Source: a virus
Reading direction: 5' to 3' (one strand)
DNA length: 64,000 nucleotides
IMG/VR virus record: IMGVR_UViG_3300045922_000122
Location: 1 to 64,000 of that record
In this document: positions 35,243-52,900 of the stretch, in pieces
Position numbering within the stretch: the stretch's first letter is position 1
How the letters are laid out: each line of letters starts with the position of its first letter
Program-made: the position numbers and the translations under genes
Notes under the pieces: generated by a model
What the model saw: only the letters and a program-made list of their open reading frames with translations
Databases searched by the model: none
Told to the model about the DNA's origin: nothing

Positions 35243-35638
35243 TTAATAGCATTTATCTAACATTTCTTTTGTTTTATCTACACCATGTACAGCAGCAAAT
35301 ATTCTAATAGCAGCTTCAGCTTCTTCTATTGTATTAACATTAAATGCTTTTAATGTTATTTCTTTAACAATGGGCGAAGATAATAATTTTTGTTTAAAAT
35401 TACTAATTAAATTTTCAATATTATTTTTATCAAATTGACTGGTTTCTGCTTTAGTAATATTATTATTTTTAACAAATTCTCTAAACCCTTCTATATCTTT
35501 TCTACCTGTTTGATTTACATAATCAGTAAATGTTTGTATAGCTTGTTGTTTTTGTTCAGGTGTTATAGTATTAACACTTTTATATAATTCTTCTAAAGAA
35601 TTATATCTTACTCCTCTATATGTTGGTTTGCAGCTCAT
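35243..35638 (-). CDS. small scaffold-like cargo protein (apparently an empty cassette)
   Basis: contains DIEGFREFVKN.NI, shared with the 5323-aa protein. Confidence 0.7.
   Translation of the reverse strand: MSCKPTYRGVRYNSLEELYKSVNTITPEQKQQAIQTFTDYVNQTGRKDIEGFREFVKNNNITKAETSQFDKNNIENLISNFKQKLLSSPIVKEITLKAFNVNTIEEAEAAIRIFAAVHGVDKTKEMLDKCY
35457..35499. repeat. 43-bp dispersed repeat, copy 1
   Basis: 40/43 identical to 38286-38328. Confidence 0.9.
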
Positions 35639-37935
35639 TGTTTTTCTGTTTTATTATTTTGTTGATTTAAAAGACCTATACCAATAGCAGGAGGAATTAT
35701 ACCAAAAGCTTTTATTTCTCCTTTACCTTCTTTAAACTTTTTAGGTATATCAAATTCATACCAAGTATTACCTTTACTATCTGTAACTTTTTTAGGTTCT
35801 ACGCCAAATAATTTTTTAATAATCTTAGGTTGTTCTGCATATTTTTTAAGAATAGTTTGATGTTCAGGAGAATAATTTACTGAAGTTTCTTTTTTTCTAT
35901 ATCCTTGCACTTTAGCAGCAGTTTCAGGAGTAGGCAATCTTACTTTATTTATATCGCCTCTTTTACCTGCATAATCTACTAACTCTTGTAAATATCTTTT
36001 CTGATGATTTTTATCTAATAGTTGTTTTTGAGTAAAGTTTTCTATTTCTGCTTTTTTCATTAAATTAAATTCTTTTTGTTTTTTAGCCTCATTAAAAGCT
36101 CCTAACTTTAAAAGTTCTTTTTCTTGATTTTCCATATTCATTAAAGCTTTTAATTCAAAATCTTTATCAAAAGATTTTGGCATAATTCTATGAGTACCTT
36201 GAAAAGCATCAGATTGTATTTGAGTTACTGTTAATACATCAGGAGTTTCCTCATCTCTTAAAAAATGAATATGACCTAATGTTTCATCTGGATTACCATG
36301 AGCATTTGAACCTCTACCAAATTTATTTTTATTTCCTAATATAAGAGTTTTGTTTTCTAATGGTAAAGATTTTGTATAATTTATAGCTGCCTCTTTATTT
36401 GGAAAATTTAAACCAAATATTCCTTCTATTTCATATTTACCCGAATTTTTATGAAAATATATTCTACTAGGGTCTTCAATAGCTTGTAAAATTTCTTTTT
36501 TATTACTAGGATATCCTATGTTCTCTAAACCATAATCACTCCTATAGTCAACAAGTCGTCTTTCTAAAGGAATAAGGTTTTCTTGTATTAATTTTCTAAA
36601 ATCATTAAAATCCATTTTTTTAGGAATGTTTTCTCCTAACCATTGTTTAACTAAAGCTACTTTTTCAGCACCTCCTGATTCTTTACCTATAATTGATAAA
36701 GCTTGTTCTATGTTTATTAATCCTGTTTTAGGTTCTACTATTTTACTAATAGGACCATCAGACATTGTAGATTTTAAATGTAGTCCAGGTAATTCTTCTA
36801 ATTGCCAAGTTTTATCTTGTTTTTCAGTAGTATTATATTTTTGTATTAAAGCTTTGTTATCTAATATTTCTTTATCAAGTTTAGAAATAGCTTCTTCTTT
36901 ACTTAATCCTTTTACAGCATCATAGGAATCATCTAACTTTTTAAATTTACCTGTTTTGTATAATTTATTCCATATACTTAATCCAACAAGATTTAAAGGG
37001 TCTGTTACAATATCTTCTACAATACCAGCTTTATTCTTCTTACCTTTAATAGCATCACTAAAAGAATAATCATCTTTATAAGCAGCTTGTACCATTTTAG
37101 AAGGTATAGTTAATGGATTTAGTATTTTAGAAGCATCACCTAATTTACTCATTATAGGATTATCAGCATACTCTTTTAACATTTCTTGCTTTTCTCTATC
37201 ACTATAATCAGGAGAATTTAAAATGTTTTTAATTGTTTGTGATGGATTTTGTTCTATTAATGAAGTCAAACCTCTTTTAGTATCTGCCCATAAAGAAGAT
37301 TGATATTTAGGATTTCTTTTAACGAATTCTTCTTCTTTACTCGTCATTGAATTTAACCATTCAGCTCTACTTAAATTTCCTTGCGGTTTATTTTTAATTA
37401 ATTGTTCAGAAACATAATCTAATGATTTTTTTTCATATTCTTCATCAAGTCTTTTTGGATAATTTGTTTCTGTATTACCAAGACTTTTTGCAAAAGGTGT
37501 TAAATATTTTTGTATATAATCATATTTAGGATTTGTTTTTTCATATTCTCTTTTATACTTTAACCAATCAGGAGCTTTATCTTCTACTACAAGTTCTTTT
37601 AAAGGAGTAGCTATATAAGTATTAGTATTTTTATCATAAGTCATTAATTTACCTGAATTATATAAATCTTTATATTCTTTAGAAGATATATCATACTCTT
37701 TAATAATACCTTTTTCATCTTTAACTTTAATTTTCTTACTAGGAATAAGACTACCATCTTCTGCATAATCAGACATTACTGGTAATGTATCTACAAAAGC
37801 ATCTACACAACTCCAGCACTTATCTTTAATCATACTTTCTACTTTTGCTCTATCTTTTTTAGGTATAATTACAATATCTCCGTATGAATTACGAATTGCT
37901 AATTCACCGCCTTCTACTTCTATTTGTTTTTTCAT
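35635..37935 (-). CDS. virion cargo protein with a polyvalent-protein-type domain (QIQSD motif)
   Basis: EVEGGE N-terminus; AH..DETLGHIHF..LTVTQIQSDAFQ..WYEFDIP; hydrophobic C-terminus. Confidence 0.7.
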   Translation of the reverse strand: MKKQIEVEGGELAIRNSYGDIVIIPKKDRAKVESMIKDKCWSCVDAFVDTLPVMSDYAEDGSLIPSKKIKVKDEKGIIKEYDISSKEYKDLYNSGKLMTYDKNTNTYIATPLKELVVEDKAPDWLKYKREYEKTNPKYDYIQKYLTPFAKSLGNTETNYPKRLDEEYEKKSLDYVSEQLIKNKPQGNLSRAEWLNSMTSKEEEFVKRNPKYQSSLWADTKRGLTSLIEQNPSQTIKNILNSPDYSDREKQEMLKEYADNPIMSKLGDASKILNPLTIPSKMVQAAYKDDYSFSDAIKGKKNKAGIVEDIVTDPLNLVGLSIWNKLYKTGKFKKLDDSYDAVKGLSKEEAISKLDKEILDNKALIQKYNTTEKQDKTWQLEELPGLHLKSTMSDGPISKIVEPKTGLINIEQALSIIGKESGGAEKVALVKQWLGENIPKKMDFNDFRKLIQENLIPLERRLVDYRSDYGLENIGYPSNKKEILQAIEDPSRIYFHKNSGKYEIEGIFGLNFPNKEAAINYTKSLPLENKTLILGNKNKFGRGSNAHGNPDETLGHIHFLRDEETPDVLTVTQIQSDAFQGTHRIMPKSFDKDFELKALMNMENQEKELLKLGAFNEAKKQKEFNLMKKAEIENFTQKQLLDKNHQKRYLQELVDYAGKRGDINKVRLPTPETAAKVQGYRKKETSVNYSPEHQTILKKYAEQPKIIKKLFGVEPKKVTDSKGNTWYEFDIPKKFKEGKGEIKAFGIIPPAIGIGLLNQQNNKTEKQ

Positions 37936-37936
37936 A

Positions 37937-40900
37937 TTATTTTAAAGTTTTTGAATTAATAACTAAACCATTTTTTGCTTTAATTTGACCTTGTTTACCA
38001 GTCATTTTAATAGTTCCATTACTTATTTCTATATCAATACCTCCTCTTTCATGGGAAGCTCCTTTAAATTCTTTAACAATTTCCCATTTACCGCCTTTTG
38101 TAAATTTATTAAAACTCATTCCATCTTTAGCACAAGGATTACCTTCTTCATCTGTATATGTTATTTCAGATTCATCAATAACATCAAACCCTAAAGTTTT
38201 ATATATTTCATTAGCTAATTGAAGATTTTTATCAAATAATTCTTCTACCTGTTGATTAATATTTTCATATTGATTATTTTCTACTATATTATCATTTTTA
38301 ACAAACTCTCTAAAACCTTCTATATCTTGTTTACTTCCTAGTATATGAACTTGTTCTGGTCTAAATACTACAAAAGATTCATCATTAGTCCCTTCTCCTG
38401 TATTAATATATACAAATCCATCAAATTTTGAATTTAATAATTTATTTTCAACTATTTTTTTATCATTAATATCAGGAATTTCTTTTCCATTAAAAGTAGA
38501 TTTATTAGGGTAATTATTTTTTACTTTAAACCAATCATCACCTTTTGGAACATCATAATCTTGATTTATTCCAGTTTCAAAACCAGCATTTTGTATATCT
38601 TTTATAAACCTTGCAGGAGATTCATCTCCAGAATCTCTTTTAAATAGAGGATTTTTAATGTTTATAATACTCAAATACAATGATTTACCTTTTTCTTCAG
38701 CATATAATTTTCTAGTTAAAGCAGCTTTTTTAGAACCAAAATGAATAAAATTATTATTTTTTGGTATATATCCATAATGATAAACAATATCTTTAACTTT
38801 ACTATCAGGAAATATAGTATCTAAATAAGCAGAATATTGTTCTAGAGTTCCAATAGAGGCTAATTCACGATATTGATTAAATAATTCTTTTACTCCTGTT
38901 TTAATCTGATTTTCTCTTTGATTAAAAATACCACTAGCTCTATTTTGAAGTTCTCTTAATCTTTCAGAACTAAAACCAACTTCACCTGTTTCTAAATCAA
39001 CTCTTTTTAGAAAAGCATCTGTAAGTATTTGTGTTAGTTCTTGTTTTTGTAGTTTAGATAATGAATTAAATTTATCCATTATCCATTTTACAAATTTAGT
39101 CCACCAATTCCAAGCTTCACCTCTTTGTTTAACAGCTTGTTCGCCAATAGACTGAACAAGAGCTTCTTCACTTCCCCACTTTCTAATAGCTTCTTGAACT
39201 ATTGGTGTGTTTCTAAACCAAGCTATATAATGGTGAGCGTATTCGTGTGGTAATGTATCTATTCTTTGGTTTAAAGCATCTATAAGAACAGTACCGGCTT
39301 TAATATTAGCTTGACCTATTATTCTATTAAGTTCATCTTTTTGAAATTGTATATTTCCAATTTTTTCAAAATATTTATATTTTCTAATAGCTTCATTAGA
39401 AATTACTTGATATAAATAAGAAGCATCAAAATTTGTAGATTTTAAAAAGTTTAAAACAGTATTATATTTATTAAATTGAGAATGAGCTTTATATCTATTT
39501 AAGATTAAATCTGAAAAAGTATCTACTTTACTTATAGTATCTAATTTATTTATAGATAGATTTTTTACAATATTGTCTTTATTACTCCAATATTGTTTTA
39601 ATAAAAATGCTGCTTGTTCATTTGATTTATATTTAGATAAAATATTATAAGGTAAGTATGACCTTAAAGTATATTGTTGATTTTTATCAAACTTTTTAAT
39701 AGCATTTTCTATACCTTCAAGTTTTACTTTTTTAGTAAAAGAAGCAAATAATCTTGAAAGCGAATAAACTTTATTTACATATTCATTTATTGATTTTAAT
39801 TTTTGTAAATACTTCTCTCTTTTATCTAATAAATCATTTATAAAATCTTCAGATTTTAAATACTTATCTAAAGATTGTAAAGATTCTTCAAAATTATTGT
39901 AAGATATACGATTTTCAAAACTATCACCTATTACTGACTTAACTAAAGAACGTAAACTAAAAGTACTTGTTTTTTTAGGTAGATATTCCCTAGTTTTTAA
40001 TTTTAACTTGTTTTCATAATATTTAATAACTTGTTTTTCTTCTTTTGAAGATAAAGGCTTTTCTTTAACTTCTTTTTTTCTGTTTTCTATTTCTTTTATA
40101 TATTCTTCTATATAATTTTTTTCTTCATATTCAGAATTTTTTATTTCATTTTCTAAAAGATTAATATATTCTTTTGGATTACTAATATTTTGTTCAATGT
40201 ATTCTCTAAACGGAGGCGTTGCATCCGCACCTGCCCATCCTTGAGCTTCTAATATACGATATATAAATCTACCTGCTTCTTTTGGACTTAGATTATAGTT
40301 AGCTTGAATATCATCTAATGTTAAAGGAATAAGTCTTGGTTTATATGTTTCTTTAACTTTTACATGTGAACCTAATCCAAAAAATTCATTAGATATAAAC
40401 TCATGTTGAGGCATATCATAAATATAAATAGCATTATTTATAGCTACAGCAGAAACATAATGAGTTATATCAAAATTTCCAAGAGGTGATTTTACAAAAA
40501 CACTTAATTGGTCTCCATTAGGAGATGAAGGGTAAGGATTTAAACCTATTTTTTTTAAATATTCTGTAGATTCTTTTGCTGTAAAATTACAAATACCGTT
40601 AGGACATAAAGTATCTTGGTTTTCAAATAATTCAAATTTATTTATTTCATCTGGTATTGTTTGATTGAAAACATTTTTATCTGTTTCCCATGTAGGATTA
40701 TTAGTAATATTTAATCCTAGTTCAGGATAAAGAGATTGTATTTTTTCTTGTAATTCTTTTACTAAGTTTAAATCTAAAGGATAATAATTATTATTACTAA
40801 TTTGATTAAATGTTTGATTATTACTTTTATTTATATATAAACCAACGCCGTTAAACGGTTGATATTCTAATCCTTTATCTAATAAATATTTTCTAATAGC

Positions 40901-43900
40901 ACCTTCTCCAACAGAATTATGATTAGAATTTGCATCATTTTCGTTATCAGCGATAAAAAATTTAACTCCTTGAGATAATGCTAAATCAATAGCTTTTTTA
41001 GTTTTTTCTAAATTTTCAGCTTGATTAGGTCTACCTTTACCATTTACAGAAATCATTATAGTTTCACCAGCTTTAAATGAAGTTCTAGTACCACCAAAAG
41101 CATTGGCATATTTATATGTACTTGTACCTGGTTCTCCATAAGCTATAATACCATCTGCATAATCAGCTTTTATTTGGTCTTTTGGAAATTTAGCATTAAT
41201 ATTTATAGGATTTGATTTTTTAATTGGTAAATTAGTAAATTGTTTATTAGAATAAATCTCAGAAGCTGTTTGTCTTTGTCTATTGGGTTCACTTAACAAA
41301 TTTTGATTATTACCTACTTCATTAATTGTATTAGTAGAATTAATACTACCAGAATTTAAATTATTAATATCAGTAGTCCATATTTTACCTTTTATATTAG
41401 CTATAACAGGTAAAGGTATTTCTTGATAAATATAAAATCTACCAGAGCCATCTAATCCAATTCTTTCATAAAGTCTGTAAATATCATTATTGTCTGTTGT
41501 TTTTATAAAAGGAGCTGCTTTATAATCATTTACTCTTAATATTAATTTAGAAGCTTTACTATAACTAACATAAGGAACTATATCTGAATTTCTCCAGTTG
41601 TTTATGTAAAAATTTCTTCTGAATATATTAAAAGTATTAATATGTGCATTAATATCTATTTTATCTAATATAGTTTTAACTACCTTTCTAGAAATTACTG
41701 CTGGAAGTATTTGATTTATACTAAATTGCGTAAAGTTATAACCAGATTGAAGCATAGAAAACTTAATTAAATCTGTTGCTAAGCTTAAATCTTTACCTCC
41801 TCTATTAAACATATCTTCTATAGCAGAAGCTATTTCTTGCATAACATAAGCATTAAAGTTTCTATTAGATAGTCTTATATTATCTATACCATCTCCATCT
41901 GGATTTATCATAGGTATTAAATAATCAAGTCTACTATCTTTAACTTCTTCTTGATATTTTTTAAGTCTTTTAGGTAAACTTTCATCTCCTTTAAATAAAG
42001 ATTGCCAATTAGCAAATTTTTCTCCAGATGTTAATATAGATATTTTAAAATCATTCTTTAAAAGTTTAGATACTTTATTTCTATTTTTAGATTTAAAAAC
42101 TCTTTCTAAAAGTTCTTCTCTAAAAGAATCTAGACTATAAACAACTTCATCAAATTGTTCTGTAAAAATAAGGTCTTTAAATGTAAATAAAGAAGCATTA
42201 TATACTTTTTTAAACGAATCTAAAAATGTAAATTGTAAATATCTATCTAGATTTTTAAAATTACCACTAGTTAAAATTTCTCTATTTGTTTTTAATAAAT
42301 CTTTTACAGCATCTGTACTTCCTAACCCTCTAGTATCAAAAGAAAATGCACTTCGCATTTGACTTATTTTAAAAGCAACTTTTTTATAGGTTAAGAAGTC
42401 TTCTAATATATTTTGTTGTACTTGTCTATTAAATTGTTGTAATTGCTCTAATGTAAGTTTATTGTATTTATAATCACCATATTTAGTTTTTAATTGTTCT
42501 AGTTCATCTTCTTTAGTAGAAATCATAGTAGATATTGATTTATGTCTACTTATTATTTCTACATATTCTCTTATTATAGGTTGGCTTATAAAGTATAATG
42601 CTGTTTGAGAAGGTAATCCTGCTGAAACTAAGAATAGAAAAACATCTGCTGTTTCAGCATTTAGATTAAACCTTTCCATAACTTCTGGGTTCTTTACAAC
42701 GTCTACTGCTAAAGAAACACCTTGTCCTAATACATTAGATATTTTTTCATTAGTAGGATTACCATTTTCATCTACTGTATATATATTACCTAGACTGTAA
42801 TATCCATTTGAGTCTTTTTCTATTCCTTTAAAATTTATAGAAAAGTTTAAAACTTCATCATCAAGTTTAAGATTACTATTTATTCTAATATCAGCTATTT
42901 GAAATAAAGGATGACTTTTGTTAGCTAAAGCAAATATACCAACTAATCCTTTACCATACCAAAACATATTTCTAAGAGTAGAAATTGTTTTGAAATTAAG
43001 TAAATCTGTAAAGCTATAATTATTAATAACTCTATCAGGATAAAACTCTTGTAATTTCTTTTCTATAACTAAAGATAAATCTTTATATTTACTAATACTG
43101 TTAGGTTCAAGTTTATCTTTAGGACTTCTACTTTCTAATAAAGCTATTGTATATTCCAGTATTTTATTTTGCAAAGCTTTTTCTCTAAGTTCTGGATTAT
43201 TTAGATTTTCTTCATTAGGTTCTACATAAATATATTCATATTTTTTAAGATTTTTATTTTCTTCATTTTTTCGTCTATTAAAATTAATTAAAGCTAATTT
43301 AAGATTAGATATAGCTGTTTTAGTATCTTCACTATATGATTTATATGCTTTAGATTCTTTAAGTTTACCTAATTCACCTTTATCACTTTTTAAACTATAT
43401 GAATTTAAAGCTTGTAATAATTCTGTAAAGGTATAATTACTAGATTTTAATAAATTTTTTATAGCAATTCTATCATCTTCATCTGTATAATTAAAATACT
43501 CATAACTATTTTCAAAATCTTCTAAATCTATTTTATCTACTTTTTTTCTTATAAAATTAGGAAAATAAATATTAATTTTATCAAAGTCAAAGTCAGAACC
43601 TACTTTTTTAGTAATACCGCTAGGAACAATACAAGTATTACCGTAAGACTTAGGTAAAAATCCTTTAACAACTATACTTTCTAAAGAGTTAAGTTGCTCT
43701 GTAGGAATACGAAAGCCATACATTTTTAAATTATTAGGGTCTATCTTATTTATAGTTTGACCTTCAGAAAGAATGTTACCAAAATAATAAGGTAAATATA
43801 TTTCCATAGTTTTACCATTTTCATAAAACTTTAATCCATTAGATTTATATTTACCATTAATTCTTTCTCTTACTTTTAATTCTGTTCCTGTATCTGGAAA

Positions 43901-46900
43901 TTGAACTAAAGATTTACCAAATCTTTTTTGATTAACTGCTTTATTTTCAAATATAGAATATAGAATTGGTTCTAATTTGTTATAATTAACTAATAAATCT
44001 AAATATACAGGTTTTCCTTTTTCAAGACCTTCTAATTCCAATATAAGAGCTTCTATTTGATTATCAGGTATTTCTCCTCTTGAATTAATTTCTTCTATTA
44101 ATAATTTCTTTAAAGCTTCTCCACCATCAGAAAATACAGCTCTACCATTTTCATATTTTAAATTTAATTCTTGTTTTACTTTATCTAAATAATAATCTGT
44201 TAAATCAGATTGTGCTTTAAATAAATCTCTTACAGCTTCTTCTATAGTTAGAACTTTATTTTTAATAGTAATAGTACCTTTTTTAAATGTTCCTTTGTCT
44301 GCTAAATCTGTAGCAATGATAGCAGCTTCTTGCGTACCTCTAGAAGTTTCTTTTGCATCTTTAGGAGAATTTTCTACTTGTATTCCTATACTTTCTATTG
44401 GTATTTCTGTAACAAGTTCATTGTCTATATCTGCTATTTCTCCAGATTCATTATAAAGAGGTTGACCTTGATATTTACCTTTTTCTCCTTTTTTTAATTT
44501 AAACCCTATTTTATTTCCACTTCTAAATACACCAATATCAATTTGGTTATTCCTCATTTTTTCCAATAGAGAGTAAAGAGCAGGGAAAGCTTCTGAATCC
44601 TCTTTAATAGCTTTTATTAAAGTAGGACTTAATCTAAGTAAAGCAAATTTAACATAAAAAGGTTTTAATTCTTCTTCACTAGAATTTCCATATATAACAG
44701 GTTTAATACTAGGTAATATAGAATTAGCTTCTTCTCCTTTACTTTCTAATTCCCAAGCTTTATTCATTTCTTCAGACCAACTATCTGACCTGAATAATAA
44801 ATCTCTATATAAATCATCTAATATAATACCGAAAGAATCAGTTTCATCTATTTCATCGTAACCTTTTACACCTAAAATACTTAATTCTTCTTTTACTGAA
44901 ACTATGTCTTCAAATGTAACTACTTTTACTTTTAATCTGTCTTCTCCTGTTTTACCATCTACTCTAGGCATATAAGTATCCATATATTCATTTATAACAG
45001 GAGTATTAATAACTTGTTTAGTAGTAGCAACAGCACCTGCATACCTTTTAAACATATCTATAAAACTAGCTGTTAAATCTGGTATATTACCTTTATATTT
45101 AGTAATATAATAAGCAGGATTTCCAAAGAGTACTTTTGTTTGTTCTATTGCACTTATAATATAATTAGTAGTAAAAGCAGTAACTACTTTTTCTATTTGT
45201 TCTTCTGTTAATTCTTTTTCTTTACCTTCTTTTATATTTAATACCTCTCTTAAAATTTCTTTACTTACATTAATTTTATTAGATTTAATTATTCCATTAT
45301 TTTTAAATAAGTTATAATTAGATGTAATTTGAAATTCTACATAATCTTTTATCTTATTTTTTACAACTTCTTCACTATCAATTATATTTATAGTATTACC
45401 ATTTTTATCTCTAATATTTTTAAATATAACTAAATCGTTTAAAAATTGTTCTCCATTTACTATAATTTTATCTTTATTTTTCTTTTGTTTTATAATTTCT
45501 AATTCAGTTAAATAATATTTATATAACTGGTCTACAGTTTGCTTTACCATATCAAACTTACTATAACCAGATATATTTATAAAAAAGTTATCTAAACTAA
45601 ATGTTCTAAAACTTTTCTTATCTCCTGTAATTAAAAAGCTAAAGTTTTTAGATAGTATATTATTAAGTTCTACAATTAGAAAATCTTTAAAACTTAATTG
45701 TGAAACATCTTGACCTGTTTCAGCAGCTTTACTCATACCATTAGTAATACCTACTCTTATGGCATTTTTCTTTTTTGAAATTCTTTCTAATATTATACTA
45801 TCTCTAGCGTATATATTAGTATTTTTATTTAAAAAGTTAGGTATTATCCCTGAAGAAAGTTTATATACTAATCTAGATATGTAATTATGTAGAGTAATAG
45901 AATAAATCATTTCTCCTTTTGAAGTAACAGCTACGTTTTCTACAACATCTTCATTAAAAGAAGATTCTAATTCTACTAATCTCTTTAATCTACTTAAAGA
46001 AGTATTAGTATAGAAATCTTTACTTCCTAATTTATCTAAAGTTATCTTTTCTGATTTTAAATCGTTTATTAATAGAGTTATACTTTTTAAATCTTCTATT
46101 CCATTTTCAGAATTTAAATAATTTTTAACAGCTTCTTTATTTTCAAATTTTATACCTAGTTTTTCTAGAAAATCTAATTGTTGAGTTGTAGTAGAAGCTA
46201 AATATTCTTTTCCTTTTTTAGTTAATCTTATTGTTCCATTTTCTCTATAAACTAAATCATTATTTATAGTTAATAGATTATTTAACCACTTTCTTAAAGT
46301 AATATCTTGAGTTTTAGTGGTATTTGTATTAACTCTATTTACAGTACCGTCTCTATTTACTATTAAATTTTCAAAGTTTTCTTTATGTTTAGAAAAAGAA
46401 TTGTAAAAAGAAACTATAAATTGTGCACTATAATAATCTCCATTTTTAGCTCTATCTTCTAATAAATTTAATAGATTATAAAGTTTTCTAAAGCCTGTAT
46501 CTTTACTATTTAAAAGCCTACCTTTAATTTCTTCATAACTAATAGAATTAGCTAATTTATTCATTAGCTTATTTATAAATTTATCATATTCATAAGTATC
46601 AGCAAAAGAAGCTAAAACTAATCTTAAAGGAGTTTTTATTTTAGATTTTTGATTTATTAAATACGCTTCTTTATAACTTTCATTAGATACTTCTTTACTA
46701 ATAACCTCATCTTTACCTAAAGATAAATCTGATTCTTCTTCTGAAATGTCATCTTCTTCTATATCTTCCTCACTTGGTTGTGTATAACCTAAAGCTTTTA
46801 TAAAATCTTTATGAATAACTACTGCTTGTTGTAATATTTCTTTCTTTCTTTCATAAGGAAGTTCTTCAAATTTTTGTGTTAACCCATCTTCTTCTAACAT

Positions 46901-49900
46901 TTCTTTAAATGAAGCGTTATATATAGGTCTTATTATTTCCTTAAAATCATCAGAATTAAAAAGATAAAGAATTTTTATATCATTAGCTAATAATTTAGAT
47001 ATTACTTTATTATGTATTCTTTTAGCTACAGCAGCATTATTAATATTTCTAACAGAATCTAATTTAGAAAACATTAAATTTTCTCTTACTTTTTTAGCAT
47101 TTTTAAATTCTCCTCTTTCTATTCTTGCATAAAAATCTTCTATTTTTTTATTAGTATTTAAAGAAAAAGCAGCTTTTATTAAATTTAATATTTTTCTAAA
47201 TAGACTTTCTTGTTTTTTAGACTTAGCTTTTTTGTTCAGCATATAAATAGCAAACCCTTCAGCTAGTCCTTCTTCTGCTTCTTTATCAGTAGCATCAGGT
47301 TTATTATTTATTAATCTCCATTCATCCCATAATTCTTTTTGTTCTTCTTTAGATATTAATAAATTTGATACATAGTGAAACGCTTCGTGGTATTCTGTTC
47401 CTTGTTCTCCCATCGTAGATAGAAGTATTTTACCATTACTTAAAATTCTACCACTAGCTATACCTTCAATAAGATTATCTACTCTTTCATAAGATTCTCT
47501 ATCTGTTATATCTATACCTAAAGTTTCAACCAACCAATTTTCAGCTTCTTCTATATTTATAGTATCTAAAATACCTGTATAAATTCTAAAAGCAGAATTG
47601 ATAGCATCATCAATAGCTTTATCAATATCAGAAAAATTATTAGAATTAGTTTTAGGCTTAGCTTCAGGATTTATATTAGGGTCATTTAAATCAACTTTAG
47701 GAGCTTCTCCAAAAAACCCTTCTAAACTTGCTTCATTTTTTATATTAGATTCTTGAGCTTTTTTCTCTAAATTTTGTTCAAATTCTTTAGTAATTTTAAA
47801 ACTATATTTAGGTTTTCCTAAAATAGGTAAAATATTATCTTCTATTTCTTTAATAATTTGTTCTACAGATTTGGTTTCCATATTATTTCCACCAAAATCT
47901 AAATTTATCTTATTTTCAAATTCATCTACTTCAGGAATCCTTTCTTTAGTTTCTATTTTAAATTTTCTATTTTTAACATCTACTATAACATTAAAATTAT
48001 TATCTTCTCTAATTGCAGTTATTTTAGTAACTTTAGATTTATTATCTTCTGTTTGAGGAATAGTATTATTTATGGTTTCTTTACTTTCTCCCGATAAGGT
48101 AGAATCAGGAGAAAGTGGATTAGGTTCAAATGTAGCATACCCTTGTTGAAATCTTCTAACTTTATCGTTTATAATATCATCTTCAGTAGCATCTTGCTTA
48201 ATCCTTAAAAATGTAGTCAATGGAATATCTTCTATTTGCCTAGTAGTACCATTAGGCATTAATGGAGAAGTTAAATAATGTTTATAACTATCCCATTCTG
48301 TTTCTTCAAAACTATAACCATTCCATAAAACTGATTTATACTTAGGTAAGTTTTCTTCTTTATTTTTATTATTAAGTAGAGCTAAAATTCTATTATTTAC
48401 ATTTAGTACTTTTTTCTGTAAAGTTTCAATTATTTCATCTTTATTTTCTTCTAAAGTATCTAAAGTTATAACTTTATTTTGTAATACTAAAACATCTTCT
48501 TTTATATCAAAAGGAATTACAGAATTTTCAGATAAATAAACTATATTTTCTATATAAGTAATTAAATTTTTATAACTTAAATTTAAACTTTCAGTTGTCT
48601 TTGCCTCTTTTGCTTTTTCACTAGCTGTATTAGGTAAAGTACTTCTATAGTTTTGTAAGTAAGCTTTAACTAATTGATATACAGTTTCTGCTTCTTGTCT
48701 ATTTATTTTTCTAGTAATAGCAGGTATCCAAGTATTTCCAAGTTTAAATAACACTCTACCAGCAGGATATACTATTCTTCTTTCGCCAGCAGTTATAGTT
48801 CTATTTGTTTTACCTTTTTCAGATTTCTCTCCTATAGATACTAATATATTTAACTTATCAGCTATATCACTTTCTTTTTCTACAATAGTACCTACTACAG
48901 AATTTTTAGTTTTATTACTTATAGGTTTACCAGGATTAAAAGATGTTATATTAAAAAAGAAGTTCTTATTACTATTCTTTTTAATAATATCTCTAATTTG
49001 TTTATGTACTTCTAGAGCATTACTTAATATTTCAGCTTTAGTTTCTTTGCTAAGGTCTTTGTTAAAAAAGCTATATCTAGGAGAATTAGTATCTTTAAAA
49101 TTTAAAGATAAATCTCTAAGTTTAGCATATACAACACCTCCATAAGCTATAACTGGTTTGTTTTCAGAATCTACTAAAACAAGTCTTATATCATCTTCAT
49201 TATGATTTACTCCTTCTATTTTAGGGTCATTATAAACAGAATTAGGCTTTCCTAAACCATAAACTTCATCGTTTATAGTAACAGACATGAATTTATAGTT
49301 TTTAGGGTCTTCATTTATTCCTATATTCTCTAACCATCTAAAAAATCTACGTTCTTCTATAACTGGATTAGAACTTTCACCAGGTTTACCATAATCACCT
49401 CTTTCACTATCTCTACCTGTAGAAACAGCCCAACCGTATAAATCTACATAAGTAGCTTGATATAAGTATGAATCATTTTCTAAATCCTCGTCTAATTCAT
49501 TATCTAAAGTCTCTATAACTCCTTTATTGGCAACACTAAATTTCTTTTGTACTTCTTTTTCAGTTTTAGCTTTTTCTTCTACTAAATTTTTATATTCTTT
49601 TTTCAAAGAATCTGCTTGTACTTTAAAGCTAGATAAACTAGACAATTTCTTTAAAAGAGAGTTATAATAACCTAACTTACTTTTTTCTTCAAGTATAGCA
49701 ACTTTTCTTCCTTCTAAAAAGTTTATCTTACCAAAATAATCATAACTTAATTCAAATAAAGCTTCTATATCTTTTTCTAAATCTTTATCTAATATTTTAT
49801 TACTTGTAAAATAAGCATGAAGTCCATCTATAGTTTTTTCAGGTAATAGTCCTTCAGGTATTCTTTTAATAATATCAGATAATAAAGAGTTAAATCCTTT

Positions 49901-52900
49901 CTTTAAATCAGTAGTTTGACTATTTATAGATTCTAGTTCAATATTTAATTTATCTATAATAGTTTTAATGTCTTCTTCATATTTACTTAAATCTTCTTTT
50001 ACTTTGTCAAACTTATTTAAAGTTTCTTCATATAATTTTATTTTATCTTTTATTTTCTTTAAGTATTCAGGATTATCTACATTTTTACCAGTAGGAGCTG
50101 CTTTTTTAAATTCATTATATGAAGCTTTAACTTCTTCTAATTCTTTATTTAAAACTTGTAATGCTTCATAAACATTAGAATTTTCTTGTTGAATTAAATT
50201 AAGTCTTTCTTGTTTAATTGATTTTAAATTTTCTAATTGTCTTAAAATTTCAAGTCCTCTTTGAAGTAGTCTGTAAGTTTTATCTTTAGCTTGTTTAGAA
50301 TTAAATCTATTAGAAGAAGTTCTTTCAGTATATTCTTTATTAACCTCTTCAAATTCTTTTTGTAAAGTATCTATATTTTCATTAATTGTAGATAGATTTA
50401 TTTCTTTTAAATTATTAACAGCATCTTGTTGTTCTGCAATTAAAGATTCTAAAGAAATTATTCTAGCTTGATACTGTCTATTTATTCTATTTATTTCATC
50501 TTGACGTTGTAAATATTCTGAATTTACATAACTTATAGTATAACGTACTGTTATTTTTTCAGATTTATTTTTATCTGTAGTTTTTTCTGTTTCTTGTGTT
50601 TCTTCTGCTTCTTCTAATTCTTCTGGTGAAGTTGTATAATTTCCTTCTTCTAATCTTTTTTTATATTCTTCTCTATCTTTTTTACTGTAAAAAGATTCTT
50701 CGTAAAAAGCTACACCTGTTTTTTCTAAATTTTCTCTTACTTGTTTTACAAAATTAGCAGCAGATTTTGTTTTTATTCTTTTAAAAGTAGTACCATCTTT
50801 TTTTCTATAAGTAAGTTCTACAAATATCCAATTGCCCTTACTATCTTTTACCTGTTCATATAAAGTATTAGGGTCTCCTTCTTTGTAAAAAAGTCTTTTT
50901 ACAGGACCTTTATCAGTACTAAGAACAATAGCACCAGATAAAAATTTAGAAGATAATTCAGAACTAGCTCTCTTTACTATTGGTGTTTTTAATTCTTTAG
51001 CTTCCTTAGTAAGAGCTTCTACTTCTGGAAAATAAGTCTTTTCTAAAACATCATCTCCATCAACATAAGTATTTAAATTTTTATATAACTGAGCTACTTC
51101 ACTATTTACAGCCTTTTTTTCAGCATCTTTTTCTTTTTTCTTTTCTAGTAAACTTAAAGCTTTTTTCTCTCTTCTGTACTCTTCTAGTTCTTCATTAGTA
51201 ACCATTTTATAATAAGCTTCTACTAATTTAGTTCTAAAATCAGAGAGAGTTAATAAGTCTAATCCTTTTTCTGCTTCTTTTTTACCATTTTCTTTATCTT
51301 TTTCTATTAATGCTAAATCTTCTAGAAAAGCATTTCTACTATCTTTATCTAACATTACTCTAGAAAAATCTTGTAAATCAACAGCACTTCTCCAATCTCT
51401 TTCTTGTTCAAATTCAGATTGTTTTTCTAGTAATAAATCTCCGTACTTATCAATACTTTCTTTTAAAGCATCTCTTAAATCTTCTAAATTAGTATATCTT
51501 TTACCTTTAGTAAAAGATATTAAATCTAATAAATCATTTCCTTCTTTTTGTAGTTCTTCATCTATAAATTCATTATTGCTAAGTTTGTCTAAAACTCTTT
51601 TTAGTAAGTTTTCGTATTCAGCTTTAGCTTTAATTTCTTTTCTAAAATTATATCTAGAGCTTGTTTTTCCTTTAGTAGCTATTTGTTGTAATTCTCTTAA
51701 TAATTTGTTACCTCTTTCTAAAACATCTTCTGTTTGTACAACGTTTAAGAATAATGACTTTCTAGTATCTTCTGAATAATTAGAAAATCTATAATTTATA
51801 CTTTGATATAATTCTTCAAATTTATCTATTCTTTCAGATATTTTCTTTAATCTATTTCTCATTTTGCTAACTAGAGCTTCATCACTCAAGTCGTCAAAAG
51901 GAGATTTAGTAACTTCAGTTTCTTTACCGTTAATATTTTCAGTAACAGTATAAGAAAGCATTTTTCTTAATTCAGAAGCAGCTTTTTCTATACCTATTTT
52001 AGGTTCTTTTTGTAATTCTTCTCCTAAAGATAATTTATTTTTAATTTCATTATATCTATTTATTAAATTAGCTATAACTCCATCTTTTTTTATATTAGAT
52101 AAGTTTCTAGGGCTTTCATCCAAATTTTCTACATTTTCAGGTAGGTCGCTAAAATCTAAAGATTCTAAGATTTGTATACTCTTTTCTATAAATTCTAATT
52201 CTTCTTTATATTTATTAATAGTTTCAGCACTAGAACTACCTTCTAATATAGAATTTAAATCATTTATTTTTTCTTTTAAAACATCTAATTGACCTATATC
52301 AGAAAAAGCAGCTACCATATTAGCTAGTTGTACTTTTTCTTGAGTTCTTGCTACTGCTTCAAATCCTTTAGCGTATGCCTCATTTTTTGATTTTTGTATT
52401 GCAGCATCACTTACCATGTAATCGAATAAACTTCTAAATTTATCATTAGTAGCATATTCGTTAGCTTTAGCAATAGCAGCATTTGTAGCTTTTAAGCTTT
52501 CATTATATTCTCTTATTCCATTAGCAATACCACCACCAATTCCAATTCTTAAATTACCTTTATCATTTCTTTTAATATAAGGCAATCCTAATCCGCCAAA
52601 TATAAAACCACCGAAAGCATTTTCCCAACCTTCAGCACTTCCATAAGCTTCTTCAAGTCCTTTAAATATAGAACCTATTATAGTTTTAGTATTTTCTAAA
52701 GCCTCTTTATCTGTTCTTAAATCAAAGTAATCTTTAGTTCCCTCTGCTGTTGCAAACTGTAATTGTTCTTGTGTCATTTCAGCAAATGGATTTTTACCGC
52801 CAGATATTATATATTTAGCTATCTTTTCAGCTTTTGACATTTGCTTAGTAGCAAAAGAAAGCCCTTCTTTAGTTGTAGATTTTGTTATTATATCTGTAAG

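What the first reader, a model, noticed from the sequence alone, without database searches (positions are those of the whole stretch)
35243..38905. Filled and empty versions of one cassette, linked by a 43-bp repeat
Seen: in the RNAP the ART-like domain sits between ..EQYSAYLDTIFPDSKV and LGSKQDIEGFREFVKNDNI. In the 131-aa ORF, QQAIQTFTDYVNQT runs straight into GRKDIEGFREFVKNNNI with no enzyme between. The DNA is 40/43 identical (35457-35499 and 38286-38328). GVKELFNQYRELAS also recurs as QVEELFDKNLQLAN on the other side of the ART. Recombination between the repeats would delete the 766-aa gene and fuse the 131-aa tail onto the RNAP. Inference: conserved scaffold motifs act as recombination handles for gain, loss and shuffling of effectors, as in polymorphic toxin loci.
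Basis: partly seen in the sequence, partly recalled or inferred. Interest (0 to 1): 0.75.

Follow-up and report, generated by a model that had tools for sequence, protein, structure and literature searches.

The report
Conserved joint for swapping phage effector domains
The 43-bp repeat encodes one half of a short, very widespread protein joint found in giant phage proteins that are probably packed into the virion; the joint can be empty or hold an enzyme domain, and sequence similarity between related phages breaks exactly at it, although the two copies in this genome show no sign of recent recombination.

Summary
The repeat is 40/43 identical, and a crossover between the copies would be in frame and delete 2,829 nt.

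The repeat encodes the C-terminal cap (M2, GSKQDIEGFKEFV) of an ART-PolyVal-type module. The 131-aa ORF carries the N-cap (M1, QQKQQAxQxYxxY) joined directly to M2, an "empty" joint.

Empty joints occur in 185 protein-cluster representatives. Of 92 joints sampled from IMG/VR:
- 60 enclose an ART core.
- 10 are empty.
- At least one encloses an AAA_33/zeta-type kinase.

After the same HExxH module of the giant protein, this phage and L019 are filled, L026 and L090 are empty, and L020 has M2 only.

DNA similarity between phages breaks at M2 in 17 of 17 alignable pairs. L090 joins giant-like DNA to DNA resembling the 131-aa gene family at the joint. One relative has three M2 caps sharing 52-69 exact bp.

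In this genome, however, the identity is what codon bias predicts (P=0.45). The longest exact run is 13 bp, and no deletion variant could be tested.

This is a new variant of known polyvalent-protein shuffling. The scan had noted similar "brackets" on other DNA (e1-5767613).

The parts
37937..53908 (-). 5,323-aa giant ORF with polyvalent-protein architecture. HExxH motifs at aa 2174 and 4888, DFDFD at aa 3439, and an ART-like module near the C-terminus.
   Evidence: No Pfam, PHROG or PDB-sequence hit for the body. RNA polymerase identity not verified.
38993..39259 (-). HEYAHHY (HExxH) module directly upstream of the cassette. It is the shared left flank of the filled / empty / M2-only series.
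   Evidence: 65-71% aa identity to L026 and L090. 89-90% DNA identity to L090, ending at 38942. Pfam SprT-like match is only E=0.25.
38855..38896 (-). M3' motif, GVKELFNQYRELAS (giant aa 5005-5018).
   Evidence: Consensus GVxxxFxxxPEL precedes M1 in the family alignments.
38795..38854 (-). M1, the N-cap of the frame: IGTLEQYSAYLDTIFPDSKV (aa 5019-5038).
   Evidence: Together with the ART start it forms a ~128-bp island (38777-38904) with 78-84% DNA identity to dozens of otherwise unrelated viral contigs.
38339..38794 (-). ART-like core, KDIVYHYG...EQVHIL (aa 5039-5190). A divergent ART-PolyVal-type domain.
   Evidence: Pfam PF18760 E=9.3e-4, 20.4 bits, below the 31.2-bit cutoff. hhalign of the core against 45 cap-free cores: probability 80%, E=1.3e-5, 38 columns. 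The core alone has no significant relative.
38285..38338 (-). M2, the C-cap of the frame: GSKQDIEGFREFVKNDNI (aa 5191-5208). Contains repeat copy 2 (38286-38328).
38186..38254 (-). M3 motif, QQVEELFDKNLQLANEIYKTLGF (aa 5219-5241).
   Evidence: The same motif follows frames in P0013, P0017, P0019 and P0021.
37741..38185 (-). Conserved gene-junction island: the giant's C-terminal tail (aa 5242-5323, ...SHERGG...) plus the first 65 aa of the 766-aa protein (..EVEGGE..).
   Evidence: 505 bp (37744-38248) are 88% identical in DNA to L004 and 67-77% to L005, L008 and L009, while the gene bodies differ.
35635..37935 (-). 766-aa ORF of unknown function. Only its first ~64 aa are conserved in relatives.
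   Evidence: No Pfam or PHROG hit. ESM Atlas gives only weak GNAT-like structural leads for aa ~370-750.
35576..35638 (-). MSCKPTYRGVRYNSLEELYKS leader of the 131-aa ORF. It is a conserved N-terminus of a family whose members range from 131 to 2,141 aa.
35456..35563 (-). Empty frame: M1 (TPEQKQQAIQTFTDYVNQT) joined directly to M2 (GRKDIEGFREFVKNNNI). Contains repeat copy 1 (35457-35499).
   Evidence: Full-length match to the empty-frame profile: 64.7 bits, E=4e-13.
35246..35455 (-). Unique 70-aa tail of the 131-aa ORF, ending ..DKCY.
   Evidence: No homologue outside this genome in the searches made.

Best explanation
The repeat is the C-terminal half (M2, ..(H)ILGSKQDIEGFKEFV) of a ~31-residue inter-module joint. 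The joint belongs to giant multi-domain 'polyvalent' proteins encoded in the structural-gene arm of the phage genome.

The N-terminal half of the joint (M1) reads (IT)PQQKQQAQQLYSQYL. The joint exists in two states:
- Empty: M1-TGKQ-M2. This is the state in the 131-aa ORF.
- Filled: a globular domain sits between M1 and M2. In the giant ORF of this phage that domain is a divergent ART-PolyVal-type, ADP-ribosyltransferase-like core.

Shown:
- The joint is far more conserved than what it encloses.
- It recurs between unrelated modules in hundreds of phage proteins.
- In natural phage genomes it is a place where sequence similarity breaks, so that neighbouring modules, including the ART, are reassorted between genes and between phages.

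Inferred:
- The joint is kept by selection on the protein. Possible roles are a helical hairpin linker that lets a domain be nested, or a packaging or processing signal.
- Its conserved DNA (18-37 bp exact between phages, up to 69 bp within one genome) serves as the substrate for homologous or short-homology recombination.
- In this genome the two copies are old paralogues of the joint, not a recently recombining pair.
- The ART-like domain is probably delivered with the giant protein to modify host targets. That activity is untested.
For: 1. Nature of the unit.
- Longer relatives of the 131-aa ORF (P0017, P0019, P0021, P0022) carry Pfam PF18760 ART-PolyVal exactly between M1 and M2.
- This window's own unit hits PF18760 weakly (E=9.3e-4). 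Its core matches a profile of cap-free cores (hhalign 80%).

2. The empty state is common.
- 10 of the 12 near-length homologues are empty.
- An empty-joint profile finds 185 representatives at E<=1e-3 and 42 at E<=1e-10 among 1.84 billion proteins.
- 108 of the 142 newly listed hits have an uninterrupted joint by regex. Only 12 of those 142 have the MSCKP leader. Lengths run from 54 to 5,999 aa.

- 60 ART cores by an HMM built without the caps.
- 10 empty joints.
- 18 unmatched by the HMM but with the ..[IL]G[SNT]xx end.
- 1 with M2 only.
- 3 likely chance matches.
- L016 reads M1 + AAA_33/Zeta_toxin kinase (E=2.2e-16) + M2. L058 holds another P-loop-like domain.

4. Series at one site, after the same HExxH module. 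This phage and L019 are filled, L026 and L090 are empty, L020 has M2 only.

5. In relatives the ART sits in the MSCKP gene: L005 aa 31-177, L011 aa 36-212, L009 aa 467-680.

6. Breakpoints.
- 17 of 17 pairs alignable on one side of M2 are not alignable on the other. At control points 300-600 nt downstream the figures are 6/11, 3/7 and 4/7.
- Examples break between -53 and +59 nt of M2. L039 (empty) and L056 (filled) share 81% identity over 458 nt only downstream of the joint.
- In L090, similarity to this giant (90%, 312 nt) stops 12 nt before similarity to the L004 MSCKP gene begins (86%, 275 nt).

7. Homogenisation. Three M2 caps of contig 3300044953_000102, one of them empty, share 52-69 exact bp including a linker that is not otherwise conserved. 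The 99th percentile between contigs is 37 bp.

8. Position-specific synonymous conservation across 104 units.
- ATA 99/104 (background 0.43), GGA 81/104 (0.36), GAG 38/47 (0.22).
- AGT 40/43 and GTT 43/43 in the N-cap.
- Same codon given same amino acid: 0.75-0.77 in caps against 0.67 in cores.
Against: - In this genome the DNA identity is fully explained by codon bias (10 of 13 codons against 9.25 expected, P=0.45). The longest exact run is 13 bp, below the between-contig median of 18.
- The hypothetical deletion would remove the giant's tail, the conserved N-terminus of the 766-aa gene and the MSCKP leader. All of these are kept in 8 of 8 syntenic loci.
- No clean cassette swap was found. 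There were 15 left-similar and 5 right-similar pairs among 72 units, and 0 pairs with both flanks similar and a different core.
- Most fillings are one superfamily (ART). The caps may therefore largely be the ART module's own terminal elements.
- All relatives are metagenome-assembled contigs. Conserved caps are repeats at which assemblers can break or mis-join. At least 6 of the 118 matches lie within ~140 nt of a contig end (L018, L019, L031, L069, L085, L102). Some mosaics could therefore be chimeric assemblies.
- The codon statistics treat related units as independent, so their P-values are too small.
The hairpin and nesting idea is untested.
- The ART core has no detectable relative, and its catalytic residues beyond the His of IVYH could not be placed.
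Confidence: 0.7

Rival explanations
1. The caps are conserved only for a protein-level reason: terminal secondary-structure elements of the ART-PolyVal fold, or a folding linker. The filled and empty forms reflect one ancient insertion or deletion. The breakpoints at the caps are a by-product of where alignments can still be anchored, or of assembly artefacts. Recombination at the caps plays no special part.
For: - The DNA identity of this genome's pair equals the codon-bias expectation.
- All empty joints share one junction form (..YLxxTGKQDIEGF..), which suggests a single origin.
- 60 of 92 fillings are ART.
- No both-flanks-kept swap was found.
- Contig ends are enriched near caps.
Against: - Sharp switches from 81-98% DNA identity to no similarity lie within +/-60 nt of M2 in contigs from different samples.
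- Non-ART fillings exist.
- Minor codons are conserved at specific positions.
Confidence: 0.2
2. The joint is a proteolytic processing or packaging signal. The giant protein and the MSCKP-family proteins are cut at or near M1/M2, by an embedded HExxH peptidase or by the prohead protease, to release separate effectors. That function keeps the peptide conserved. This is compatible with the joint also being a recombination junction.
For: - Two HExxH motifs lie in the giant ORF, one directly upstream of the cassette.
- Iyer et al. 2017 propose autoprocessing of polyvalent proteins by embedded metallopeptidases, with phage P1 DdrB as the precedent (passages read).
- The joint sits between otherwise unrelated modules in hundreds of proteins.
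- An unchecked first-reader note proposes cleavage motifs in the same ORF (e1-6123283).
Against: - There is no direct evidence of cleavage.
- The HExxH modules have no significant family match (Pfam SprT-like E=0.25).
- A cleavage signal does not explain why a domain is nested inside the joint rather than beside it.
Confidence: 0.25
3. The two copies in this genome are a functional direct-repeat pair. They recombine at appreciable frequency, giving a subpopulation that lacks 2,829 bp and carries the tail of the 131-aa ORF on the giant protein.
For: - The crossover would be in frame.
- L090 shows an analogous fusion architecture in a relative.
Against: - The pair is 40/43 identical with a 13-bp longest exact run, and there is no excess codon identity.
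- The deleted segment holds modules conserved in 8 of 8 relatives.
- Only contig-level data from what may be the source sample were available. They showed no such joint but were uninformative.
Confidence: 0.07

Closest known systems
Polyvalent proteins of phages and conjugative elements, and their ART-PolyVal domain (Pfam PF18760; Tox-ART-HYD2 clade). Iyer, Burroughs, Anand, de Souza, Aravind 2017, PMC5512222; passages read.
   Same: - A giant multi-domain protein of a phage that combines HExxH peptidase-like modules with an ART.
- The paper reports ART fused to virion RNA polymerases, one to 12 ART copies per protein, and highly variable architectures.
[quoted passage not shown]
   Different: - In the paper's main text the word 'linker' occurs 0 times, and none of the passages I read describes a conserved joint.
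- The paper's own supplementary alignments could not be seen.
- New here: the M1/M2 joint, its empty state, non-ART fillings, and DNA breakpoints at the joint.
- The ART here is below Pfam's cutoff.
Recombination between conserved motifs ('His boxes') in the distal tail-fibre genes of T-even phages, which swaps adhesin segments (Tetart et al. 1998; recalled from memory, not seen in any call).
   Same: Short conserved coding motifs inside a structural gene mark the junctions at which variable segments are exchanged between phages.
   Different: - Those motifs lie in a receptor-binding protein and change host range.
- Here the joints lie in probable injected effector proteins and can be empty.
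Polymorphic toxin systems (CdiA with its VENN motif, Rhs with PxxxxDPxGL) with orphan toxin cassettes (recalled from memory; the analogy is also drawn in PMC5512222).
   Same: A conserved peptide motif precedes a hypervariable effector domain, and its DNA is thought to mediate displacement of effector cassettes.
   Different: - No immunity gene.
- The effector is bracketed on both sides and is internal, not a C-terminal tip.
- It is a phage rather than a bacterial system.
- No both-flanks-kept swap was seen.
Phage T4 internal proteins and Alt, with a conserved N-terminal capsid-targeting sequence followed by variable cargo (recalled from memory; also the closest-known named in scan note e1-5792226).
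   Same: - The MSCKPTYKG..NSLEELYK leader heads proteins of 131 to 2,141 aa with unrelated bodies.
- A 64-aa leader heads the variable 351-766-aa neighbouring gene.
- One T4 cargo, Alt, is an ART.
   Different: - Packaging or cleavage of the leaders here is untested.
- There is no sequence similarity to the T4 targeting sequence.

Membership tests
ART-PolyVal (Pfam PF18760) | Match to the Pfam model at or above the gathering score (31.2 bits). | tested here: not met
   - The 200-aa unit scores 20.4 bits, E=9.3e-4, profile positions 35-130.
- There was no hit at E<=1 when the 587-aa C-terminus was scanned.
- 35 of 93 related units do match at E<=0.001.
ART-PolyVal (Pfam PF18760) | Homology of the core, without the caps, to cores of bona fide members. 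| tested here: inconclusive
   - hhalign of the 138-aa core against 45 cap-free cores: probability 80%, E=1.3e-5, but only 38 columns (IHFG..NIKNP region).
- tblastn of the core alone: best hit 28% identity, E=0.004.
- No homologue among proteins of 243-2,000 aa.
ART-PolyVal (Pfam PF18760) | H-Y-D active site: His in strand 1, Tyr in strand 2, Asp in strand 5 (as stated in PMC5512222). | tested here: inconclusive
   - His is present in KDIVYHYG.
- The position aligned to the family's aromatic 'yF' reads HF.
- The Asp could not be placed without a structure.
ART-PolyVal (Pfam PF18760) | ADP-ribosyltransferase fold. | not testable with these tools
- A profile of 77 units found no solved structure by sequence at E<=1.
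Polyvalent proteins (Iyer et al. 2017) | Several unrelated effector-type domains in one very large polypeptide of a phage or conjugative element. | tested here: met
   - A 5,323-aa ORF with two HExxH motifs, DFDFD and the ART-like unit.
- Relatives of the neighbouring genes combine ART, PD-(D/E)XK (weak) and kinase modules.
- The L090 ORF is a mosaic of modules found in different genes elsewhere.
Polyvalent proteins (Iyer et al. 2017) | Packaged in the virion and delivered into the host with the DNA. | not testable with these tools
   Only context is available. The ORF lies in a minus-strand block with a PHROG 'virion structural protein' (58135-62469, E=3.2e-25), opposite the replication genes.
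Polymorphic-toxin-type cassette locus | Variable C-terminal toxin tip after a conserved motif, with a cognate immunity gene and downstream orphan toxin/immunity cassettes. | tested here: not met
   - The variable domain is internal and bracketed on both sides.
- The next genes are a 766-aa and a 131-aa ORF with conserved leaders, not immunity genes.
- No swap with both flanks kept was found.
crAss-like or N4-like virion RNA polymerase | Sequence or structural match to a known virion RNA polymerase. | tested here: not met
   - No PDB-sequence match for aa 2300-3700 at E<=0.01.
- No Pfam or PHROG family for that region.
- Only a DFDFD motif was seen. A structural comparison could not be run.

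The most novel reading that the evidence does not exclude
The ~31-aa joint is a dedicated, selected 'socket' of injected phage proteins, and its nucleotide sequence is itself under selection. Minor codons ATA, GGA and GAG are fixed at particular positions across phages of 23-52% GC. Under this reading the sequence is the target of a specific exchange mechanism, either a phage recombinase preference or templated gene conversion between co-infecting phages. That mechanism would let phages load, unload and trade effector domains at will. The joint would then work as a search handle for cataloguing unknown injected anti-host enzymes.
Probability: 0.12. Interest if true: 0.85.

Novelty: new variant of a known kind. 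Interest (0 to 1): 0.58.

Why it matters
Polyvalent, virion-delivered proteins are a large and mostly uncharacterised store of anti-host enzymes.

A short, easily searched joint that brackets such domains gives two things:
- A practical handle for finding unknown injected effectors. The domain between M1 and M2 in L058, the 18 unmatched cores, and the modules next to the empty-joint profile matches in 185 protein clusters are all candidates.
- A concrete, testable locus for the old idea that phage mosaicism proceeds through conserved boundary sequences.

For this phage specifically, the result says three things. The giant protein carries an orphan ART-like core in a slot that close relatives leave empty. 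The 131-aa gene is the minimal member of a family that in relatives carries the ART. The tempting 2.8-kb deletion is not supported.

Tried and rejected
- Pfam and PHROGs on the three proteins of the finding and on the large neighbours gave nothing significant.

- tblastn against 50,697 GenBank phage records gave one partial hit for the giant's C-terminus and none for the 131-aa ORF.

- Direct relative searches in IMG/VR with single proteins found one locus and none. The alignment-based search and the pattern scan were what worked.

- Deletion variant.
  - The look-up of sequencing runs found two runs holding the stretch. They are equal-sized, possibly the source sample filed twice, and are labelled hot-spring / microbial-mat metagenomes. 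Two further runs of the same sample had almost none of its words.
  - Read laying returned only ~20-120-nt fragments of contigs, mostly from other organisms. No piece spanned the region and no joint between the repeats was listed. This is uninformative, not evidence of absence.

- I considered that a TATATT microhomology created by the conserved ATA codons might explain the empty form. I rejected it because the empty junction reads ..T-G-K-Q.., not ..T-I-L-G-S-K-Q...

- I considered a frameshift heptamer or Shine-Dalgarno-like reading of the conserved GAAGGATTTAAAGAG. The frame does not fit X XXY YYZ and no start codon follows in frame (inspection of the consensus). I did not pursue it.

- There is no compositional sign of recent acquisition of the ART core (GC 0.237 against 0.251 for the giant ORF).

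- A search for a both-flanks-conserved cassette swap found none.

- The ART core has no relatives of 243-2,000 aa.

- ESM Atlas for the 766-aa protein gave only low-confidence GNAT-like structural leads (model pLDDT 0.52).

- Text searches found no paper holding the motif strings. The single hit for one string is an unrelated Salmonella paper.

- Supplementary files were not opened. The supplementary alignments of PMC5512222 may well show these flanking motifs.


Full report
**What is in the window.**
- The window is the first 64 kb of an 85.6-kb IMG/VR virus record, 26.6% GC, estimated 96% complete.
- A plus-strand arm holds replication-type genes: DNA polymerase, helicases, primase and an rIIA-like gene.
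- A minus-strand arm holds very large ORFs. One of them matches a PHROG 'virion structural protein' (58135-62469).
- The finding lies in the minus-strand arm. In order it contains a 5,323-aa ORF (37937-53908), a 766-aa ORF (35635-37935), a 131-aa ORF (35243-35638) and a 1,665-aa ORF.
- I could not confirm that the giant ORF is an RNA polymerase. It has a DFDFD motif at aa 3439 and HExxH motifs at aa 2174 and 4888. It has no Pfam, PHROG or PDB-sequence match.

**The observation.**
- The two DNA copies are 40/43 identical, without gaps.
- DIEGFREFV occurs exactly twice in the six frames of the genome.
- BLASTP extends the similarity to 63 residues (39.7%, E=6.5e-6).
- A crossover would be in frame. 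It would delete 2,829 nt and fuse the tail of the 131-aa ORF to the giant ORF.
- The DNA identity is not informative in itself. Of the 13 codon pairs that encode the same residue, 10 are identical against 9.25 expected from the genome's codon usage (P=0.45). The longest exact run is 13 bp.

**What the motifs are.**
- Near-length homologues of the 131-aa ORF (12 proteins) share an invariant N-terminus, MSCKPTYKGxRYNSLEELYKA.
- In 10 of the 12 this is followed by QQKQQAQQxYxxYxxxTGKQDIEGFKEFV. After that the sequences are unrelated.
- Longer homologues (8 proteins) include four with Pfam PF18760, ART-PolyVal.
- Their sequences show the full unit: [..QQKQQAQQLYSQYLDTIFPDSKV] [KDIVYHG ... VVFEPEQIHIL] [GSKQDIEGFKEFV].
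- I call the first block M1 and the last block M2. The 131-aa ORF has M1 running straight into M2.
It often precedes M1 or follows M2.
- The window's own filled unit hits PF18760 only weakly (E=9.3e-4, 20.4 bits against a 31.2-bit cutoff).
- With the caps removed, its 138-aa core aligns to a profile of 45 cap-free cores over 38 columns (hhalign probability 80%, E=1.3e-5). It has no significant individual relative.
- 'ART-like' is therefore reasonable but not proven.

**How widespread the joint is, and what it holds.**
- After removing 13 duplicates and 14 matches with under 60 aa of upstream ORF or with N, 92 units remained. They break down as follows:
  - 60 have a core recognised by an HMM built from cores without caps.
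  - 10 are empty (M1 at most 8 aa before DIEGF).
  - 18 are not recognised by the HMM but end with the ..[IL]G[SNT]xx context.
  - 1 has M2 only.
  - 3 look like chance matches.
- Pfam on the same set plus the window's unit gave ART-PolyVal in 35 of 93, AAA_33 in 2, Zeta_toxin in 2, PARP in 1 and Trp_halogenase in 1. The last is the chance match L028.
- In L016, M1 (..QQAQQLYSQYLDT) is followed directly by an AAA_33/zeta-toxin-type P-loop kinase (E=2.2e-16) and then by ..ILGSKQDIEGFKEFV.
- L058 has another Walker-A-bearing domain in the same place.
- The frame is therefore not merely the ends of one domain family.
- A profile of 15 empty joints, searched against 1.84 billion representative proteins, found 185 at E<=1e-3 and 42 at E<=1e-10.
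- Of the 142 newly listed hits, 108 contain an uninterrupted joint by regex. Only 12 begin with the MSCKP leader. Lengths range from 54 to 5,999 aa.
- The flanks of these joints are mutually unrelated modules.

**Filled and empty at the same site.**
- Relatives of the giant ORF can be aligned through the HEYAHHY module (65% identity for L026, 71% for L090, 57% for L020, 37% for L019). What follows ..TD(A/S)FLxRxDL.. differs between them:
  - This phage and L019: M1 + ART + M2.
  - L026 and L090: M1 + M2, with nothing between.
  - L020: M2 only.
- Conversely, in the eight syntenic loci found with the family alignment, the ART sits in the MSCKP gene: L005 aa 31-177, L011 aa 36-212, L009/L010 aa 467-680.
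- That gene is 148, 176+, 347, 899+, 1,118, 1,118, 1,485 or 2,141 aa long in those loci.

**Evidence that the joint is a recombination junction.**
- L090. Its DNA is 90.4% identical to this giant over 312 nt, up to own position 38942. Twelve nucleotides later it becomes 85.8% identical over 275 nt to the MSCKP gene of L004, and 79% identical to this window's 131-aa gene. The whole 2,128-aa L090 ORF is a patchwork of modules that lie in different genes elsewhere.
- Pairwise examples from different samples:
  - L039 (empty) and L056 (filled) share 81% identity over 458 nt, starting 7 nt before DIEGF, and nothing upstream.
  - L022 and L031 are 97% identical up to +59 and unrelated beyond.
  - L066/L072 break at -50 and L040/L044 at -53.
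- Systematic count. 17 of 17 pairs alignable (>=70% over >=120 nt) within 240 nt on one side of M2 are not alignable on the other. At control points 300, 450 and 600 nt downstream the discordant fractions are 6/11, 3/7 and 4/7. Upstream controls are confounded by the N-cap.
- Within one relative (contig 3300044953_000102, giant 65% identical to ours), three M2 caps share 52-69 exact bp. One of the three belongs to an empty joint. The identity reaches into an otherwise non-conserved linker and has sharp edges. Between contigs, the longest exact run has median 18, 95th percentile 32 and 99th percentile 37 bp.
- Synonymous sites in the caps are unusually uniform across 104 units from loci of 23-52% GC:
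  - ATA 99/104 (background 0.43), GGA 81/104 (0.36), GAG 38/47 (0.22).
  - AGT 40/43, GTT 43/43 and ATT 41/42 in the N-cap.
  - Overall, same codon given same residue is 0.75-0.77 in caps against 0.67 in cores.
- The window's N-cap region (38777-38904) is a ~128-bp island of 78-84% DNA identity to dozens of otherwise unrelated contigs.

**Caveats.**
- The units are not phylogenetically independent, so the codon P-values are inflated.
- All relatives are assembled from metagenomes, and conserved caps are exactly where assemblers break or mis-join.
- At least six matches (L018, L019, L031, L069, L085, L102) lie within ~140 nt of a contig end. Some mosaics may therefore be artefacts.
- I found no pair in which both flanks are kept and only the core differs (0 of 72 units). 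The picture is reassortment of neighbouring modules at joints, not replacement of a cassette in a fixed scaffold.
- Recombination cannot by itself explain why the peptide is so conserved. A protein-level role must exist (hairpin linker for nested domains, or a processing or packaging signal), and that role is only inferred.

**This genome.**
- The two copies look like old paralogues of the joint.
- There is no excess codon identity and no long exact run. The ART core shows no compositional anomaly (GC 0.237 against 0.251).
- The segment between the copies holds elements conserved in all eight syntenic relatives. These are the giant's tail and the first ~64 aa of the next gene, which form a 505-bp island 88% identical to L004, and the MSCKP leader.
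- The run data could not test for a deletion variant.

**Comparison with what is known.**
- Iyer et al. 2017 (PMC5512222; passages read) define polyvalent proteins.
- They describe the H-Y-D ART as the commonest protein-modifying domain in them, note its fusion to virion RNA polymerases and up to 12 copies per protein, and remark on cassette-like small ORFs that suggest recombinational variability.
- In that paper's main text the word 'linker' does not occur, and I found no description of the joint in the passages read.
- No paper in the searched library contains the motif strings. The paper's supplementary alignments were not available to me.
- Recombination at conserved motifs in T-even tail-fibre genes, pre-toxin motifs of CdiA/Rhs, and the T4 capsid-targeting leader are close analogies. 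All three are recalled from memory.
- Notes of this scan on other genomes (e1-5767613, e1-5931012, e1-6055421) describe 'brackets' and 'slots' in crAss-like cargo proteins that were emptied, refilled or filled with a kinase. My results agree with them, independently for this family.

**Verdict.**
- This is a new variant of a known kind, of moderate to good interest.

Noticed in passing
window 37741-38248: The giant ORF ends ..KGASHERGGIDIEI.., and the next gene, starting right after the stop, begins MKKQIEVEGGELAI... This 505-bp gene junction is 88% identical in DNA to L004 and 67-77% to L005, L008 and L009, while the bodies of both genes differ. In L011 the two pieces lie in one ORF (giant-tail match at aa 2217-2329 followed by a 766-aa-protein-like match at 2331-2390). 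First-reader note e1-6123290 saw the same motif pair.
   Followed up: partly
window 35243-35638, and L004-L011 around position 10001: The MSCKPTYKGxRYNSLEELYK leader is nearly invariant and heads proteins of 131 to 2,141 aa. Many members also end with a Cys within the last few residues (..KLC..NHC..KKC..TKC; here ..DKCY). A leader or capsid-targeting role, or a Cys-Cys link, is conceivable.
   Followed up: no
protein P0014 (102 aa) against window 35638-35817: P0014 joins the MSCKP leader to a tail like the C-terminus of the 766-aa protein (..LFGV..WYEFDIPKKFKEGKGEIKAF..). It is another module reassortment, this time without the joint.
   Followed up: no
IMG/VR loci L018, L019, L031, L069, L085, L102: The M2 cap lies within ~140 nt of a contig end in at least 6 of the 118 pattern matches, far more than expected for contigs of tens of kb. 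The caps apparently break metagenome assemblies. This fits near-identical copies within a sample, but it is also a warning about chimeric contigs.
   Followed up: partly
104 units in loci L012-L129; window 38285-38338: Minor codons are almost fixed at particular positions of the caps: Ile ATA 99/104, Gly GGA 81/104, and a G or C in the third position of the residue after DIEGFK whatever that amino acid is. Other synonymous sites in the same motif vary freely (His CAT/CAC, Leu TTA/CTA, Val GTT/GTA). No explanation beyond gene conversion or nucleotide-level selection was found.
   Followed up: partly
window 35635-37935: The ESM Atlas model of the 766-aa protein is poor (pLDDT 0.52). Several GNAT acetyltransferase clusters nevertheless align to aa ~370-750 (TM 0.46-0.56 normalised by the hit). 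PMC5512222 notes that a GNAT often neighbours the ART in polyvalent proteins. This is a lead only.
   Followed up: no
genome 32-163 and 85482-85616 (the first lies in the window): Short ORFs at the two ends of the record are 97.7% identical over 44 aa. The record therefore has a terminal overlap or repeat and is probably a complete, circularly permuted or terminally redundant genome.
   Followed up: no
L006:12102-12416 (104-aa ORF): A small ORF in a relative holds a GIGTLEQYIDFIDSKFPN..(about 25 aa)..YILGSEEDIKQFKE unit. This is a near-empty frame with a very short filling, in a different gene of the same phage.
   Followed up: no
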